Assembly (NCBI RefSeq): GCF_006345805.1
Contig: NW_021824628.1
Coordinates: 1-17,918, forward strand
From: Octopus sinensis
Lineage: Eukaryota
Direction: 5' to 3'
Length of the DNA: 17,918 nucleotides
Part shown: piece by piece, positions 1,781 to 16,503 of the stretch
Position numbering within the stretch: the stretch's first letter is position 1
How the letters are laid out: every line of letters starts with the position of its first letter
Notes under the pieces: generated by a model
The model's database searches: none
Told to the model about the DNA's origin: nothing
What the model saw: only the letters and a program-made list of their open reading frames with translations
Translations under genes and position numbers: made by a program

Positions 1781-2308
1781 TAATGTGCCCCCCCCCCAAG
1801 GCGTTGGGTGAATTATATGATAAAATGAGAGGTTGCAAAAAGTATTAGTTGGAGGAAAAGGTAGTAGTAGAGTGAGGGTGACTTATATCAGTGAAGGTGA
1901 GAACAGCAGTGGCAATGGGATAATAACATTAATACAGCTGTCATATACATCTGACGCTGGATACATACTTTCGTAAATACTTAGATACAATACTCACACA
2001 CATGCACACACACATACAGAGAAAAAGGTGGATGTGAGGAATATGCAGCTTTAAGGAGAGAGGGAGTAGATGGCTTTTCTGCTGTCCATCTCAAAGAAAC
2101 ACTCACACACAGACACACACATACATATATACATGGTGTTGACTATACACCATTTTAAACTCGTGACTACCTGTATGTACATTTGAAATTTGTGTGTGTG
2201 TGTGAGAGAGACATCCTATAACTTTGTATCTCTCTACTTTTGTAGGATCTTCCCTGGAGCTGTTACACTGTGAGATTAAAAAATTTTGTCATAATTTTCA
2301 AATTTGGT

Positions 2309-2584
2309 ATCATCATCATCATCATCAACATTTAATATCCCCTTTCCATGCTGGGATGGGTTGGACGGTTTGACTGGGGTCTGGGAAGCCAGAAGGCTGC
2401 ACCAGGCTCCAGTCTGATCTTGCAGTGTTTCTACAGCTGGACGCCCTTCCTAATGCCAACCACTCCAAGAGTGTAGTGGGTGCTTTTTTATGTGCCACCG
2501 GCACAGGGGCCAGAGAGGGCTGGCATTGACTATGATCAGATGGTGGTTTTTTACGTGCCACCAGCACAGAAGTCAGTCAAGGTG
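2309..2584 (-). mobile_element. SINE-like family C with (GAT)n 3' tail, left part; interrupted by tRNA+SINE A, resumes at 3039-~3070
   Basis: Homologous to 11005-11509 (CTTTCCATGCT...GGGTTGGACG...CTACAGCTGGA.GCCCTTCCTAATGCCAACCACTCC...); CAT repeats at 2309-2326 read as a GAT tail on the minus strand. Confidence 0.85.
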
Positions 2585-2585
2585 C

Positions 2586-2657
2586 GGCTCGTTGGTCTAG
2601 GGGTATGATTCTCGCTTTGGGTGCGAGAGGTCCCGGGTTCCAATCCCGGACGAGCCC
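2586..2657 (+). tRNA. trnP-TGG: tRNA-Pro(TGG) gene or retro-copy, 72 nt, one T-loop substitution
   Basis: GGCTCGTTGGTCTAGGGGTATGATTCTCGCTTTGGGTGCGAGAGGTCCCGGGTTCCAATCCCGGACGAGCCC. Acceptor stem GGCTCGT/ACGAGCC; anticodon arm CTCGC-TT-TGG-GT-GCGAG (TGG at 2618-2620); T arm CCGGG-TTCCAAT-CCCGG. Matches the conserved metazoan tRNA-Pro except TTCCAAT for TTCAAAT. Only TTT follows (2663-2665), so no immediate T4 terminator. Confidence 0.95.
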
Positions 2658-2666
2658 ATAAATTTC

Positions 2667-3038
2667 AGGCGCAGGAGTGGCTATGTGGCTTGCTAACCAG
2701 CCACATGGTTCAGTCCCACTGCGTGGCATCTTGGGCAAGTATCTTCTGCTATAGCCTCGGGCCGACCAATGCCTTGTGAGTGGATTTGGTAGACGGAAAC
2801 TGAAAGAAGCCTGTCGAATATATGTATGTGTGTGTGTGTGTGTCTGTGTTTTGTCCCCCTAGCATTGCTTGACAACCGATGCTGTGTGTTTACGTCCCCG
2901 TCACTTAGCGGTTCGGCAAAAGAGACCGATAGAATAAGACTACTGGCTTACAAAAGAATAGTCCCCGGTCGATTTGCTCGACTAAAGCGGTGCTCCAGCA
3001 TGGCCACAGTCAAATGACTGAAACAGTAAAAGGAGTAA
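2667..3038 (+). mobile_element. tRNA-derived SINE family A, near full length (CORE-like central segment)
   Basis: A-box TGGCTATGTGG, B-box-like GGTTCAGTCC, CORE-like CTTGGGCAAGT segment, internal (TG)n, AGTAAAAGGAGT tail; homologous to 16668-17104 and 17448-17849. Confidence 0.92.
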
Positions 3039-3140
3039 GTGGCACTGGTATTGGCCACGTTTGAAATAATTTTCCAGTTAAATCCAATTTGTTTTTTATT
3101 TGTTCCTAGCATCCAGCTGAATTATAGGTAGGGAAAAGAG

Positions 3141-3296
3141 TACTCAAATACCAGAGGTAGAGTAATATGCTTTATTTAAAAGCAGCAGAAATATAACAAA
3201 AGCTGATACTCAGAGTTTCACGTTCCGATGAATGGTAACTTGAAACTCTGAGTAACAGCTTTTGTTATATTTCTGCTGCTTTTAAATAAAGTATAT
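3141..3296. mobile_element. Inverted duplication (56-bp arms) of a putative Penelope-like terminal segment with a hammerhead-like motif
   Basis: Arms 3165-3220 and 3241-3296 are reverse complements with 2 mismatches; CCGATGA...GAAA-CTCTGAGT-A motif at 3225-3254. The inverted repeat is certain; the Penelope assignment is inferred. Confidence 0.65.
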
Positions 3297-3343
3297 ATAT
3301 GTATGTATATATATGTGCTTACTCCGATATATTAATATATATA

Positions 3344-7124: not shown

Positions 7125-8020
7125 AAACAGGACACTTTAAATAATGTAGTCCTAGATGCCCAATGTCTGAATTGAAGGCAGGATGGCCACAACTGGAACA
7201 TCTGTGATCATAGATCTGCAGGATCAGGACTGACCTGGGGCTAAACAACAACATCAACAAAGATGGACACTTTAGATGATGTAGTCCTAGATACACTTAA
7301 GTTTGAACAGATAACAAGATGATCATCACTGGAGCACTTTTGATTATAGGCCTGCTGGATCAGGGCTGGCCTGGGGCTAAATAAGAAAAACAACAACAAC
7401 AACAAGGAAGGGCACATTAGATTCTGTTGTCCTAGGTACACGATGTTTGGATAAAAGACAAGGTGGTCACAACTGGAACCTCTTTGATGATGGGCTTCCT
7501 GGATCTGGACTGACCTGGGGTTAAACAGCAACAAGGGAGATGAAAAAATTTAGTCTTAGATACACTACGTCTAAATAAAAGGCAGGATGATCACAGCTGG
7601 AACGTCTTTGATCACAGGTCTGCTGGAGCTGGACTAACCTAGGGTTAAACAGCAACAAGGAAGTGTACAAATGTAGTCTTAGATACACTACATTTAAATA
7701 AAAGGCAGGATGGTCACAGCCGGAACGTCTTTGATCATAGGTCTGCTGGATCAGGACTGACCAGGGGTTAAACAGCAAGAAGGAAGGGTACAAATGTAGT
7801 CTTACACTATGTGTAAATAAAAGGAAGGATGGTCACAGCTGGAACGTCTTTGATCATAGATCTGCTGGATCTGGACTGACCTGGGGTTAAACATAAAGGA
7901 AGGGTACAAATGTACTCTTACACTATGTTTAACTAAAAGGCAGGATGGTCACAGCTGGAACGTCTTTGATCATAGGTCTGCTGGATCTGGACTGACCCGG
8001 GGTTAAACAACAACAACAGG
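7125..8020. repeat. Family D tandem array 1: 7 units of ~116-144 bp
   Basis: Marker C(T/A/C)(G/A)GGG(C/T)TAAA at about 7235, 7371, 7515, 7639, 7762, 7881, 7997; shared GGATGGTCACAGCTGGAACGTCTTTGATCATAGGTCTGCTGGATC. Confidence 0.93.
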
Positions 8021-8510
8021 GACAATCACCTCCTGCCCACCCAACTTTAAGAAAGATACCTATCCCCTTCCACAACCACCACAGCAATACATATCCACCC
8101 TTTTCTCTCATCCTATACCGACCCACTCTCAATCCACCCTGAATACCCCATACATTGGTTGTTGGCCCTATTGTTGTACCCTGCTGTGTATCCTTTGCAC
8201 CCTAACATCTCAAGTACCCCCTGCCCTGCCCATTCCCTAACCTTGTTCTCTCCCCCCCACTCCGCAGTAAATATTAAACTTACCTCCAGTGGTGGTGGTG
8301 GTGGTAGAGGTGGTGATGGTGGGGGATTCACACTTACTCTCTCTCTCTCTCTCTTACACACACAACACTCACCCACCCGCCACCCAGACACTGTTCTAAT
8401 TTCATCTCCCATCACCTGCCAATTGTTTGATGAGTGTGTGTGTATACACATACATATCTAGATCTACATATGTATCTATCTGTCTGTCTATGAGTGTGTG
8501 TATATGTATT

Positions 8511-10932: not shown

Positions 10933-11655
10933 AAGGTGGCGAGCTGGTAAAATCATTAGTACACTGAACAAAATGCTTAGTGGCATTTCGACTGTCACTA
11001 TATTCATCATCATCATCATCATCATTATCATCATCATCATCATCATCATCATCGTTTAACGTCCGCTTTCCATGCTAGCATGGGTTGGACGATTTGACTG
11101 AGGACTGGCGGACCAGATGGCTGCACCAGGCTCCACTCTGATCTGGCAGAGCTTCTACAGCTGGATGCCCTTCCTAATGCCAACCACTCCGAGAGTGTAG
11201 TGGGTGCTTTTACGTGCCACCGGCACTAGGGCCAGTCAGGCAGTACTGGCGATGGCCATGCTCAAATAATGTTTTTTTACATGCCACCTGCACAGGTGCC
11301 AGTCCAGCGGCACTGGCAACGACCTCGCTTGAATGTTTTTCCACGTGCCACCAGCACAAGTGCCAGTAAGGTGATGCTGGTAATGATCACACTCAAATGG
11401 TGCTTTTTACGTGCCCCCAGCACGGAAGCCAGTTTGCTGCTCTGGCAACGATCACGCTCAGACGGTGCTCTTAGTGCTCCACTAGCACGGATGCCAGTCA
11501 TCGAATTTGCTCAGTTCAAATTCCGCTGGGGCTGAGTTTCTCTTATACCCTTTCAGGATCGATAAATTAAGTACCAGTTAAGTATTGGAGTCAATGTAAT
11601 CAATTACCCCTCTCCCCCAAATTTCAGGCCTTGTGCCTATAGGAAAAAGGGTTAT
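10933..11655 (+). mobile_element. SINE family B2, split by insertion of family C (pieces 10933-11005 and ~11510-11655)
   Basis: Head AAGGTGGCGAGCTGG...TATATTC resumes as CTCAGTTCAAATTCCGC...GATAAATTAAGTACCAG; tail CCCCAAATTTCAGGCCTTGTGCC differs from B1. Confidence 0.85.
11005..11509 (-). mobile_element. SINE-like family C with (GAT)n tail and five internal ~65-bp subrepeats
   Basis: (CAT)n at 11005-11053; homologous to 2309-2584; TTTTACGTGCCACC(G/A)GCAC-type motif at about 11207, 11272, 11336, 11404, 11468. Confidence 0.87.
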
Positions 11656-12809: not shown

Positions 12810-13560
12810 CGTGGTGATTGAAGACATTCCAGCTGTGACCATCCCATTTTTTTTATTCAGGTATTATATAATGTCATGTGTAGTGTAATATCCATCCTTG
12901 TGTTTGTTGTTCAGCCCCAGGTCAATCCTGATCCAATGGACCTATGATCAAAGATGCTCCAGTTGTGACCATCCTGTCTTTTATTCAGGCATAGTGTATC
13001 TAGGACTACATTATCCTTGTTGTTTAGCCCCAGGTCAGTTCTGATTCAACTTACAACCAAAAATGTTTCCACTGTGACCATCCTGCCTTCTACTCAGGCA
13101 TGGTGTACCTAGGCATCGTGTACCTAAGACTACATTTTCTAATGTGTCCTTTCTTGTTATTGTTTAATCCTAGGTCAGTCATGATTGAACAGACCTATGA
13201 TCAAAGCTGTTCCAGCTGTGACCATCCTGTCTTTTATTCAGACATCATGTATCTAGGACTACATCATCAACTGTGTCCTTCTTTGTTGCTATTGTTGTTT
13301 AGCCCCAGGTCAGTCTTAATCCAGCAGACTTATGATCAAAGCTGTTCCAGCTGTGACCATCCTGTCTTTTATTCACACATGGGGTATCTAGGACTACATT
13401 AATTAATGTGACCTTCCTTGTTGATGTTGTTTAGCCCCAGGTCAGTCTCAGTCTAGCAGATTCCTGATCAATAATGCTCCAGCTGTGGCCACCCTGTCTT
13501 ATTTTCATACATAGTTTATCTTGGACTACATTATCCAATGTGTCCTTCTTTGTTTTTGTC
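12810..13560. repeat. Family D tandem array 2: ~5-6 units, inverted relative to array 1
   Basis: TTTAGCCCCAGGTCAGT...TATGATCAAAG...TTCCAGCTGTGACCATCCTGTCTTTTATTC...CTAGGACTACA units are reverse complements of the 7125-8020 units. Confidence 0.92.
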
Positions 13561-15587: not shown

Positions 15588-15748
15588 CTGGACAGGGCGA
15601 TGTGTTGTGTTCTTGAGCAAAACACTTCATTTCACGTTGCTCCAGTCCACTCAGCTGGCAAAAATAAGTAACGCTGCGATGGACTGGCGTCCCGTCCAGC
15701 TGGGGAGCACATACGCCATAGAAACCAGGAAACCGGGGCCCATGAGCC
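15588..15748 (+). mobile_element. SINE family E, 5'-truncated copy forming a tail-to-tail inverted repeat with the adjacent array
   Basis: 15588-15718 is the imperfect reverse complement of 15749-15879. Confidence 0.85.
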
Positions 15749-16503
15749 TGGCGTATGTGTTCCCCAGCTGGATGGGACGCCAGTCCATTGCAGTGAAACT
15801 CGTTTTTGCCAGCTGAGAGGACTGGAGCAACGTGAAATGAAGTGTTTTGCTCAAGAACACAACGCGTCACCCTCTCCAGGAATCGAAACCACAATCTTAC
15901 GATCATGATGCTGACACCCTAATCCATTGCAGCGTTACTCGTTTTTGCCAGCTGAGTGGACTGGAACAACATGAAATGAAGTGTTTTGCTCAAGAACACA
16001 ACGCGTCACCCGTCCAGGAATCGAAACCTCAATCTTACAATCAATGCTGACACTGACACCCTAATCCATTGCAGCGTTACTCGTTTTTGCCAGCTGAGTG
16101 GACTGGAACAACATGAAATGAAGTGTTTTGCTCAAGAACACAACGCGTCACCCTGTCCAGGAATCGAAACCTCAATCTTACAATCATGATGCTGACACCC
16201 TAATCCATTGCAGCGTTACTCATTTTTGCCAGCTGAGTGGACTGGAACAACATGAAATGAAGTGTTTTGCTCAAGAACACAACGCGTCACCCTGTCCAGG
16301 AATCGAAACCACAATCTTACGATCATGATGCTGACACCTTAATCCATTGCAGCGTTACTCATTTTTGCCAGCTGAGTGGACTGGAACAACATGAAATGAA
16401 GTGTTTTGCTCAAGAACACAACACGTCACCCTGTCCAGGAATTGAAACCACAATTTTACAATCATGATGCTGACACCCTAACCACTAAGCCACATGCCTC
16501 CAC
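15749..16503 (-). repeat. Tandem array of five ~139-bp units derived from the 5' half of tRNA-SINE family E
   Basis: Units start (CCATTGCAG) at 15785, 15924, 16066, 16205, 16344; minus-strand head GTGGAGGCATGTGGCTTAGTGGTTAGGGTG (A-box) only at 16503-16474; a GTTTC(G/A)ATTCC B-box-like motif in every unit. Confidence 0.93.

What the first reader, a model, noticed from the sequence alone, without database searches (positions are those of the whole stretch)
2582..3041. tRNA-Pro + SINE chimeric cassette inserted as one unit into another repeat
Seen: the family C element stops at ...AGTCAAGGTG (2584) and resumes GTGGCACTGGTATTGGCCACG at 3039, matching the subrepeat pattern of the 11005-11509 copy, with GTG on both sides. 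Between them lie one extra C, an almost perfect tRNA-Pro starting at its mature 5' end, a 9-nt linker (ATAAATTTC; no added CCA, no T4 terminator) and a whole SINE A. Established: SINEs arise from Pol III transcripts with tRNA heads, and chimeric retrocopies form by read-through or template switching. Inference: a co-retrotransposed tRNA-SINE fusion, possibly a nascent SINE subfamily with a fresh tRNA head, or a route for dispersing tRNA genes.
Basis: partly seen in the sequence, partly recalled or inferred. Interest (0 to 1): 0.75.

Follow-up and report, generated by a model that had tools for sequence, protein, structure and literature searches.

The report
Precursor tRNA hitchhiking on a SINE
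A copy of an unfinished transfer RNA sits fused in front of a short jumping repeat inside another repeat, one of about a hundred such one-off fusions in this genome that likely formed when the copying enzyme jumped from one RNA onto another, the step thought to give birth to new short repeats.

Summary
Family C is interrupted in register with a 3-nt duplication, so tRNA-Pro and SINE A most likely entered together. The 'linker' is the 3' trailer of tRNA-Pro genes in a C1 cluster, cut inside their terminator, so the piece is a pre-tRNA. It is not a nascent subfamily: the junction is single-copy and the copy looks crippled. It belongs to a genome-wide class. Of 47 T-loop+SINE-head hits, 36 are tRNA-derived; so are 67 of 89 T-loop+shared-tail hits, against 1 of 21 in reverse orientation; none has a CCA junction. 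Spliced, trailer-bearing Leu-CAA copies from intron-containing genes show an RNA intermediate. Seven of 9 dispersed U6 loci are fused the same way. Likely mechanism: a LINE reverse transcriptase jumps from the SINE or tail 5' end onto U-tailed Pol III RNAs. This is a variant of known U6-L2/Mon-1 chimeras and the step inferred for PittSINE's birth. The scan noted this class before in this genome (e1-8842578) and in two others. Reads across the junction and orthologous empty sites were not examined.

The parts
1901..2310 (.). Older dispersed repeat ('family D'), left part; host of family C
   Evidence: genomic copies align up to 2310
2311..2584 (-). Family C retroposon, 3' part; the trinucleotide run at 2311-2329 is its likely tail (orientation inferred)
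2582..2584 (+). Left copy of the 3-nt target-site duplication; may also overlap the pre-tRNA leader (microhomology, inferred)
   Evidence: (5-nt upstream match in 2 trailer-matching cluster genes)
2585..2585 (+). Extra base, likely the last nucleotide of the pre-tRNA 5' leader
   Evidence: 3 of the 5 trailer-matching cluster copies have the same base here
2586..2657 (+). tRNA-Pro(TGG) body; substitution at T-loop position 57 (2641) in the B box
2658..2665 (+). pre-tRNA 3' trailer ending in three T of the source gene's T5-T6 terminator
   Evidence: 8-nt match to genes at G000:C1:115658425, 115683441, 115683559, 115693026, 115693141
2666..2666 (+). One junction base: a SINE leader variant or a non-templated addition
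   Evidence: 4 of 35 ordinary SINE A heads have the same base at -2
2667..3038 (+). SINE A of a young subfamily, full extent; 7-nt deletions near 2687 and 2707; T4 at 2849-2852
2987..3038 (+). 3' tail: predicted double hairpin plus short repeats, related to the tail of an RT-encoding LINE (L263)
3039..3041 (+). Right copy of the 3-nt target-site duplication
3042..3063 (-). Family C resumes in register, then ends (likely its truncated 5' end)
3061..3128 (.). Family D resumes
   Evidence: 85-88% to 3 of 5 family D copies, directly after the left part

Best explanation
The cassette is a pre-tRNA-Pro copy, trailer included, fused in sense to a full SINE A inside one 3-nt duplication, and it likely arose in one insertion when a LINE reverse transcriptase jumped from the SINE RNA's 5' end onto the pre-tRNA's U-rich 3' end. 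Shown: family C continuity, trailer identity with SINE-free source genes, a class of about 100 independent sense fusions, spliced members. Inferred steps: (1) a stringent LINE RT binds the double-hairpin tail of SINE A RNA and primes at a nick in family C; (2) it copies to the RNA 5' end; (3) it adds a few non-templated bases and engages a nuclear pre-tRNA ending in UUU; (4) it copies through the leader and joins the target, perhaps helped by microhomology with the leader. The product is likely a dead-on-arrival retrocopy, not a master.
For: One duplication surrounds both parts, with both nested hosts resuming in register. The trailer matches 5 of 91 cluster copies, none with a SINE behind it. 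Class counts: 36 of 47, 67 of 89, reverse orientation 1 of 21, CCA junction 0 of 103, at least 10 amino-acid isotypes; backwards-pattern controls 0. Where the source is in hand, homology often runs only 3-11 nt into the leader and to the T-run, then stops (for example L223, L123, L175, L217, L337, L339). Leu-CAA: 17 of 17 full-length unfused copies keep the intron, while 3 of 7 full-length fused copies are spliced yet keep trailers. U6: 7 of 9 distinct dispersed loci are fused in sense. Flanks 5' of the tRNA piece resemble flanks 3' of the tail (n=58, 0 of 2000 permutations) while the spacer does not (349 of 2000). Host repeats continue across the whole unit in 3 of 60 other loci. R2-type RT jumps end-to-end with non-templated additions (bioRxiv 10.1101/2021.04.30.442027, passages).
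Against: The duplication at this site is only 3 nt. The flank signal vanishes once microsatellite flanks are removed (n=25, 294 of 2000). The continuity test is insensitive: it missed L072, a native gene with a SINE inserted behind its terminator, so some class members are not chimeras. No trailer-matching source has both the TGG anticodon and an intact body; the closest are CGG genes at 2-3 differences. No LINE with SINE A's exact tail subtype was found in about 1.1 Mb of loci, so the enzyme is not pinned down. DNA alone cannot separate template jumping from RNA ligation. Reads across the tRNA-SINE junction were not examined, and the contig is unplaced with many single-base indels.
Confidence: 0.75

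Rival explanations
1. The pre-tRNA and SINE RNAs were ligated first (RtcB-type, as proposed for U6-L1; recalled), and the fused RNA was then retrotransposed.
For: It gives the same DNA product: sense orientation, one duplication. The sharp junction hotspot at the foot of the tail (17 of 30 copies) would fit a cleaved RNA end. PMC13174262 (passages) lists ligation or template switch for sense chimeras.
Against: Fresh pre-tRNA ends are UUU-OH and a SINE's native 5' end is a triphosphate (recalled), both poor RtcB substrates, yet 36 hits join at the SINE's natural start. Short duplicated tRNA 5' pieces (L089, L092, L123, L211) suggest an RT that re-engages templates.
Confidence: 0.13
2. A SINE A first landed in a tRNA-Pro gene's terminator; the read-through transcript was then retrotransposed, making this a daughter of a chimeric master.
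For: SINE A does sit behind native cluster genes (L072 and two paralogous copies). Three Asp genes at C3:22.55 Mb each carry a tail. A few fusions share trailer and junction at unrelated sites (L255/L256, L252/L254).
Against: The junction is single-copy. None of the 5 trailer-matching genes has a SINE. L072 has a different trailer and an intact terminator. The first 100 of 122 Asp matches show about 80 array genes without SINE or tail while dispersed fusions carry their trailers.
Confidence: 0.07
3. Two separate insertions at the same base, or an assembly artefact.
For: The contig is short and unplaced, with no second copy of the locus. The single lay of contigs beside the junction was swamped by repeats.
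Against: There is no second duplication, and both hosts resume exactly. The same architecture recurs about 100 times, mostly on chromosome-scale contigs, in sense only.
Confidence: 0.05

Closest known systems
U6-L2, U6-Mon-1 and U6-AnolisSINE2 chimeras (Doucet et al. 2015, PMC4476161; passages read)
   Same: A U-tailed Pol III RNA, often 5'-truncated, sits in sense upstream of a short piece of a stringent LINE or its SINE, with 1-9 bp duplications; attributed to template switching. U6 fusions of this kind occur here too.
   Different: Here the captured RNAs are mostly pre-tRNAs of many isotypes with leader, trailer and, in some, introns, and they join at fixed points: the SINE start or the foot of the tail.
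PittSINE origin (Suh et al. 2017, PMC5729268; passages read)
   Same: Template switching from a SINE RNA with a CR1 tail to a different tRNA was proposed to found a new SINE.
   Different: That step was inferred from the amplified family. Here unamplified intermediates are seen directly; this copy keeps the old SINE head, and no amplification is shown.
Human tRNA/LINE-1 chimeras (PMC13174262; passages read)
   Same: tRNA sequence and a retroelement inserted in one event.
   Different: Those (n=21) are mostly tRNA halves in antisense, with 9-19 bp duplications, and are ascribed to twin priming. These are sense, carry trailers, and have short duplications.
SINEU-2 5' extensions (Kojima 2015, PMC4494074; passages read)
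   Same: Recurrent addition of a small RNA to the 5' end of a full SINE, ascribed to template jump or switch.
   Different: snRNA (U1/U2) rather than pre-tRNA, and those families have master copies.

Membership tests
Chimeric small-RNA/LINE-SINE retrocopy (U6-L2 type) | Both parts inside one target-site duplication, host contiguous | tested here: met
   (3-nt duplication; hosts resume in register)
Chimeric small-RNA/LINE-SINE retrocopy (U6-L2 type) | Small RNA 5' and in sense to the retroelement 3' end | tested here: met
   (103 sense against 1 antisense)
Chimeric small-RNA/LINE-SINE retrocopy (U6-L2 type) | Small-RNA part copied from RNA, not DNA | tested here: met
   Class level: spliced Leu-CAA copies with trailers. 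This copy: homology to sources ends within 6 nt upstream and at the T-run
Chimeric small-RNA/LINE-SINE retrocopy (U6-L2 type) | Joined by the RT (switch or jump) rather than by ligation | not testable with these tools
   the DNA product is the same
Chimeric small-RNA/LINE-SINE retrocopy (U6-L2 type) | Partner LINE shares the 3' tail | tested here: inconclusive
   An RT-encoding LINE has a sibling tail; none with SINE A's exact subtype was found in the loci held; the CR1-group label is recalled from motifs only
New (dimeric) SINE subfamily | Several dispersed copies with the same junction | tested here: not met
   1 exact match; of 43 matches, only this locus and two with other spacers extend into a SINE (40 of 693 candidates scored)
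New (dimeric) SINE subfamily | Intact Pol III promoter and no terminator before the tail | tested here: not met
   B-box position 57 changed; T4 at 2849-2852; either could be an assembly error
New (dimeric) SINE subfamily | Transcript spanning the junction | not tested
   no RNA reads were laid on the junction
Native tRNA gene with a later SINE insertion | Gene flanks continue on both sides | tested here: not met
   Flanks are family C; identity to the source's -50..-15 region is 0.17

The most novel reading that the evidence does not exclude
The LINE's 3' double hairpin exists as a discrete RNA of about 55 nt, cut or released at its 5' foot (17 of 30 tail copies begin there). The RT routinely caps it, or a whole SINE, with whichever U-tailed Pol III transcript is at hand. 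The genome then continually mints ready-made 'tRNA head + LINE tail' proto-SINEs. A few may have copied again (L255/L256, L252/L254) or become working tRNA genes (C3 Asp trio), which would make SINE birth and tRNA-gene dispersal directly countable.
Probability: 0.3. Interest if true: 0.75.

Novelty: new variant of a known kind. Interest (0 to 1): 0.5.

Why it matters
SINEs are thought to arise when a tRNA gains a LINE tail by template switching (as stated in PMC4476161), but that step is usually inferred from finished families. This genome holds about 100 unamplified intermediates with leaders, trailers and introns, so capture rules, start sites, processing order (splicing before trailer removal) and the odds of becoming a master can be measured. 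They also inflate tRNA gene counts: ARAGORN calls many as genes. The locus itself is one ordinary, probably inert, member.

Tried and rejected
Empty allele or haplotig: searches with both flanks found only other repeat copies (the left flank's best other copy is 84%). Public contigs laid on 2940-3330 were swamped by repeat depth and no piece spanned the site; shares of words are repeat-driven and were not used as evidence. A search with the upstream flank of the best source gene found only itself and one weak paralog. TSD test: not significant outside microsatellite flanks, and the ordinary-SINE control was as high 100 nt upstream as at the junction. The 13 C27-type hits were rejected as a retro-amplified family: they share flanks and did not classify as tRNA. 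ARAGORN at relaxed threshold gave false calls, so I replaced it with BLAST to default-threshold calls; its isotype labels 'Met-cat', 'Ile-aat' and 'Ile-tat' are mislabelled Leu/Ser copies. 5' breakpoints as modification marks: 6 of 17 truncated Glu copies fall in one 3-nt window (p about 0.017 against uniform; post hoc; several rows mis-mapped by indels), so weak only. LINE clade: Pfam gave only RVT_1, PDB nothing useful, the Atlas no result. Three SINE or tail motifs were found in no paper, so SINE A was not matched to OK/OR1/OR2. Searches for a printed description of sense pre-tRNA-trailer fusions found none; the library omits most subscription journals, and supplements were not read.

Full report
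Setting. The window is contig C1099 of G000 (2.72 Gb, 13,516 contigs). The host is likely an octopus; that rests on recalled repeat families and on earlier scan notes, and was not tested.

Observation. A tRNA-Pro(TGG) lies at 2586-2657. SINE A follows from 2667 to 3038 and aligns with two other full copies in the window. I fetched the 29 best genomic copies of family C. With 3039-3041 read as a duplicate of 2582-2584, the right flank matches their continuation at a mean of 12.1/18 over 34 aligned rows, against 3.3-4.1 in other registers. Family C itself interrupts an older repeat that stops at 2310 and resumes near 3061. The site is thus three layers deep, with one short duplication around tRNA and SINE together.

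The linker. A search with the junction region led to a tRNA-Pro cluster at C1:115.6-115.8 Mb. In 200 kb there are 91 tRNA-Pro-like copies. Five share the first 8 nt of the spacer and then run on into a T5-T6 terminator with no SINE. Three of the five also share the extra 5' base, and two share 5 upstream bases. The closest intact ones have a CGG anticodon and differ at 2-3 sites; CpG decay in the copy would explain the anticodon (inference). The insert is therefore a pre-tRNA from the end of its leader to a UUU end.

Not a subfamily. The exact junction occurs once. The SINE belongs to a young subgroup (26 of 80 aligned copies share two diagnostics). It has two 7-nt head deletions essentially absent from the other 80 and a T4 at 2849-2852. 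The tRNA B box differs at position 57. Single-base details may be assembly errors on this unplaced contig.

A class. A T-loop motif 8-38 nt before a SINE A head occurs 47 times, among 56,736 heads. The next 31-nt window gives 9 hits, 6 of the 7 fetched being tRNAs with longer trailers. The same motif before the shared 3' tail core occurs 89 times, and before a reversed SINE tail 21 times. All 157 loci were fetched and classified by BLAST to ARAGORN-called tRNAs: 36 of 47, 67 of 89 and 1 of 21 are tRNA-derived. None of the 103 sense cases has a CCA junction, and about 43 reach the tRNA 5' end. Not all are independent or chimeric: L077/L078 are a tandem pair, L135/L137/L138 one duplicated locus, L072 a native gene with a SINE behind it, and L224 is ambiguous. 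About 100 remain. The motif search needs an intact T-loop. It misses this very copy, and it would miss mature-tRNA pieces stopped at position 58, so the counts are lower bounds and the absence of CCA is biased.

RNA origin. Asp fusions carry trailers of a C5 tandem array and of a C9 gene, which lack SINE or tail. In the well-matched cases homology runs 3-11 nt into the leader and to the T-run, then stops; many fusions had no good source among the loci held. A spliced Leu-CAA query returned fusions as its best hits and intron-split native arrays below them (40 of 541 candidates scored). All 17 full-length unfused copies keep the intron; 3 of 7 full-length fused copies are spliced yet keep trailers that match those arrays. 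Among the top 30 of 48 U6 matches, 20 are a native array (3 inspected, unfused). Seven of the 9 distinct dispersed loci are fused in sense to a SINE head, the SINE 3' half or a tail.

One event per fusion. Across 58 fusions, the flank 5' of the tRNA piece resembles the flank beyond the tail (0 of 2000 permutations), and the spacer does not (349 of 2000). In the 25 without microsatellite flanks the effect is absent (294 of 2000). Host repeats continue across the whole unit in 3 of 60 loci and gene flanks in 0 of 60, but this test missed L072. Support for single events is thus strong at this site and a few others, and indirect elsewhere.

Enzyme and junction points. One tail subtype has 1,485 exact copies. 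Of the first 30, 10 follow a LINE body whose ORF has an RVT_1 domain, 1 keeps about 35 nt of it, 2 follow a tRNA-like piece, and 17 begin within about 1-6 nt of the tail core (read by eye). The core folds as two hairpins, and the second stem differs in sequence among subtypes while keeping its pairing. The ORF's motifs look CR1-group (recalled). Earlier scan notes name Tx1-like LINEs as tail partners of an abundant SINE here (e1-10333165, e1-9970665); I did not test whether that is SINE A, and I found no LINE with SINE A's exact tail. R2 RT adds non-templated bases and jumps only at a template's 5' end (10.1101/2021.04.30.442027, passages). If that holds here, the tail hotspot marks a real RNA end, which is the novel case.

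Mechanism. Most likely (0.75): priming on the SINE tail, synthesis to the SINE 5' end, a jump onto a nuclear pre-tRNA's U-tail, and joining to the target at the leader. Rivals: prior RNA ligation (0.13), read-through from a SINE-bearing tRNA gene (0.07), separate insertions or artefact (0.05).

What is known. U6 chimeras with L2, RTE and their SINEs, with short duplications, are described (PMC4476161, passages). A switch to a new tRNA was proposed for PittSINE (PMC5729268, passages), and small-RNA 5' extensions for SINEU-2 (PMC4494074, passages). Human tRNA/L1 chimeras are antisense halves (PMC13174262, passages). I also saw passages of PMC4824008, PMC4758252 and PMC13282606 and abstracts of PMC6007223 and PMC5786205; no supplements. 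Five searches found no description of sense pre-tRNA-trailer fusions as a class, within a library that lacks most subscription papers. The scan reached the same reading before in this genome (e1-8842578, about 125 fusions) and for Rex1 and Tx1 in others. My reading was recorded before those look-ups, and they are not independent evidence.

Verdict. A real, single, probably inert pre-tRNA-SINE retro-chimera. It works like a U6-L2/Mon-1 chimera, fails the tests for a SINE subfamily, and points to a class of proto-SINE intermediates. New variant of a known kind; interest 0.5.

Noticed in passing
L209-L238, L252-L258, L357-L394 (hits): 67 pre-tRNA copies joined to a tail-only piece of about 50-60 nt, of several tail subtypes: the minimal 'tRNA head + LINE tail' SINE layout.
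   Followed up: yes
L259-L288 (G000:C1, first 30 of 1,485 tail copies): Sharp 5' truncation hotspot at the foot of the tail's first hairpin (17 of 30, by eye).
   Followed up: partly
L224, L179 (G000:C3:22.546-22.549 Mb): Three tandem tRNA-Asp copies with near-perfect bodies and related upstream flanks, each followed by a diverged tail: a retrogene turned functional, or native genes with an old tail insertion.
   Followed up: partly
L255/L256, L252/L254, L090/L091: Pairs of fusions with the same trailer and the same or nearly the same junction at unrelated sites; repeated captures or secondary copying.
   Followed up: partly
L291, L293: Two U6 copies join SINE A at nearly the same internal point, just behind a short T-run.
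   Followed up: no
L337, L173: Pre-tRNA joined to other retroposons: Leu-CAA to a family C-like piece, Asp to a longer piece of another tail-bearing element.
   Followed up: no
L089, L092, L098, L123, L211: A short extra copy of the tRNA's 5' part precedes the full tRNA, suggesting repeated RT engagement at the 5' junction.
   Followed up: no
G000:C1:115.62-115.82 Mb; C5:18.29-18.40 Mb; C27:6.91-6.92 Mb; C1:141.83-141.95 Mb: Large single-type clusters or arrays: tRNA-Pro (91 copies in 200 kb), tRNA-Asp (158-nt unit), intron-containing tRNA-Leu(CAA), and U6.
   Followed up: partly
L239-L251 (C27, C28 and small contigs): 13 copies of a short T-loop-like piece plus tail inside a duplicated microsatellite block; spread with its flanks.
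   Followed up: yes
window 3165-3296 and 15588-15879: Two dispersed palindromic elements (91% and 84% self-complementary), MITE-like; the first has many genomic copies.
   Followed up: no
window 7129-8022, 12814-13559, 15784-16481: Tandem arrays with units of about 123-144 nt; the first two are related and in opposite orientation.
   Followed up: no
L287: A tRNA-like sequence of unrecognised type with a T-run is fused to the LINE tail.
   Followed up: no
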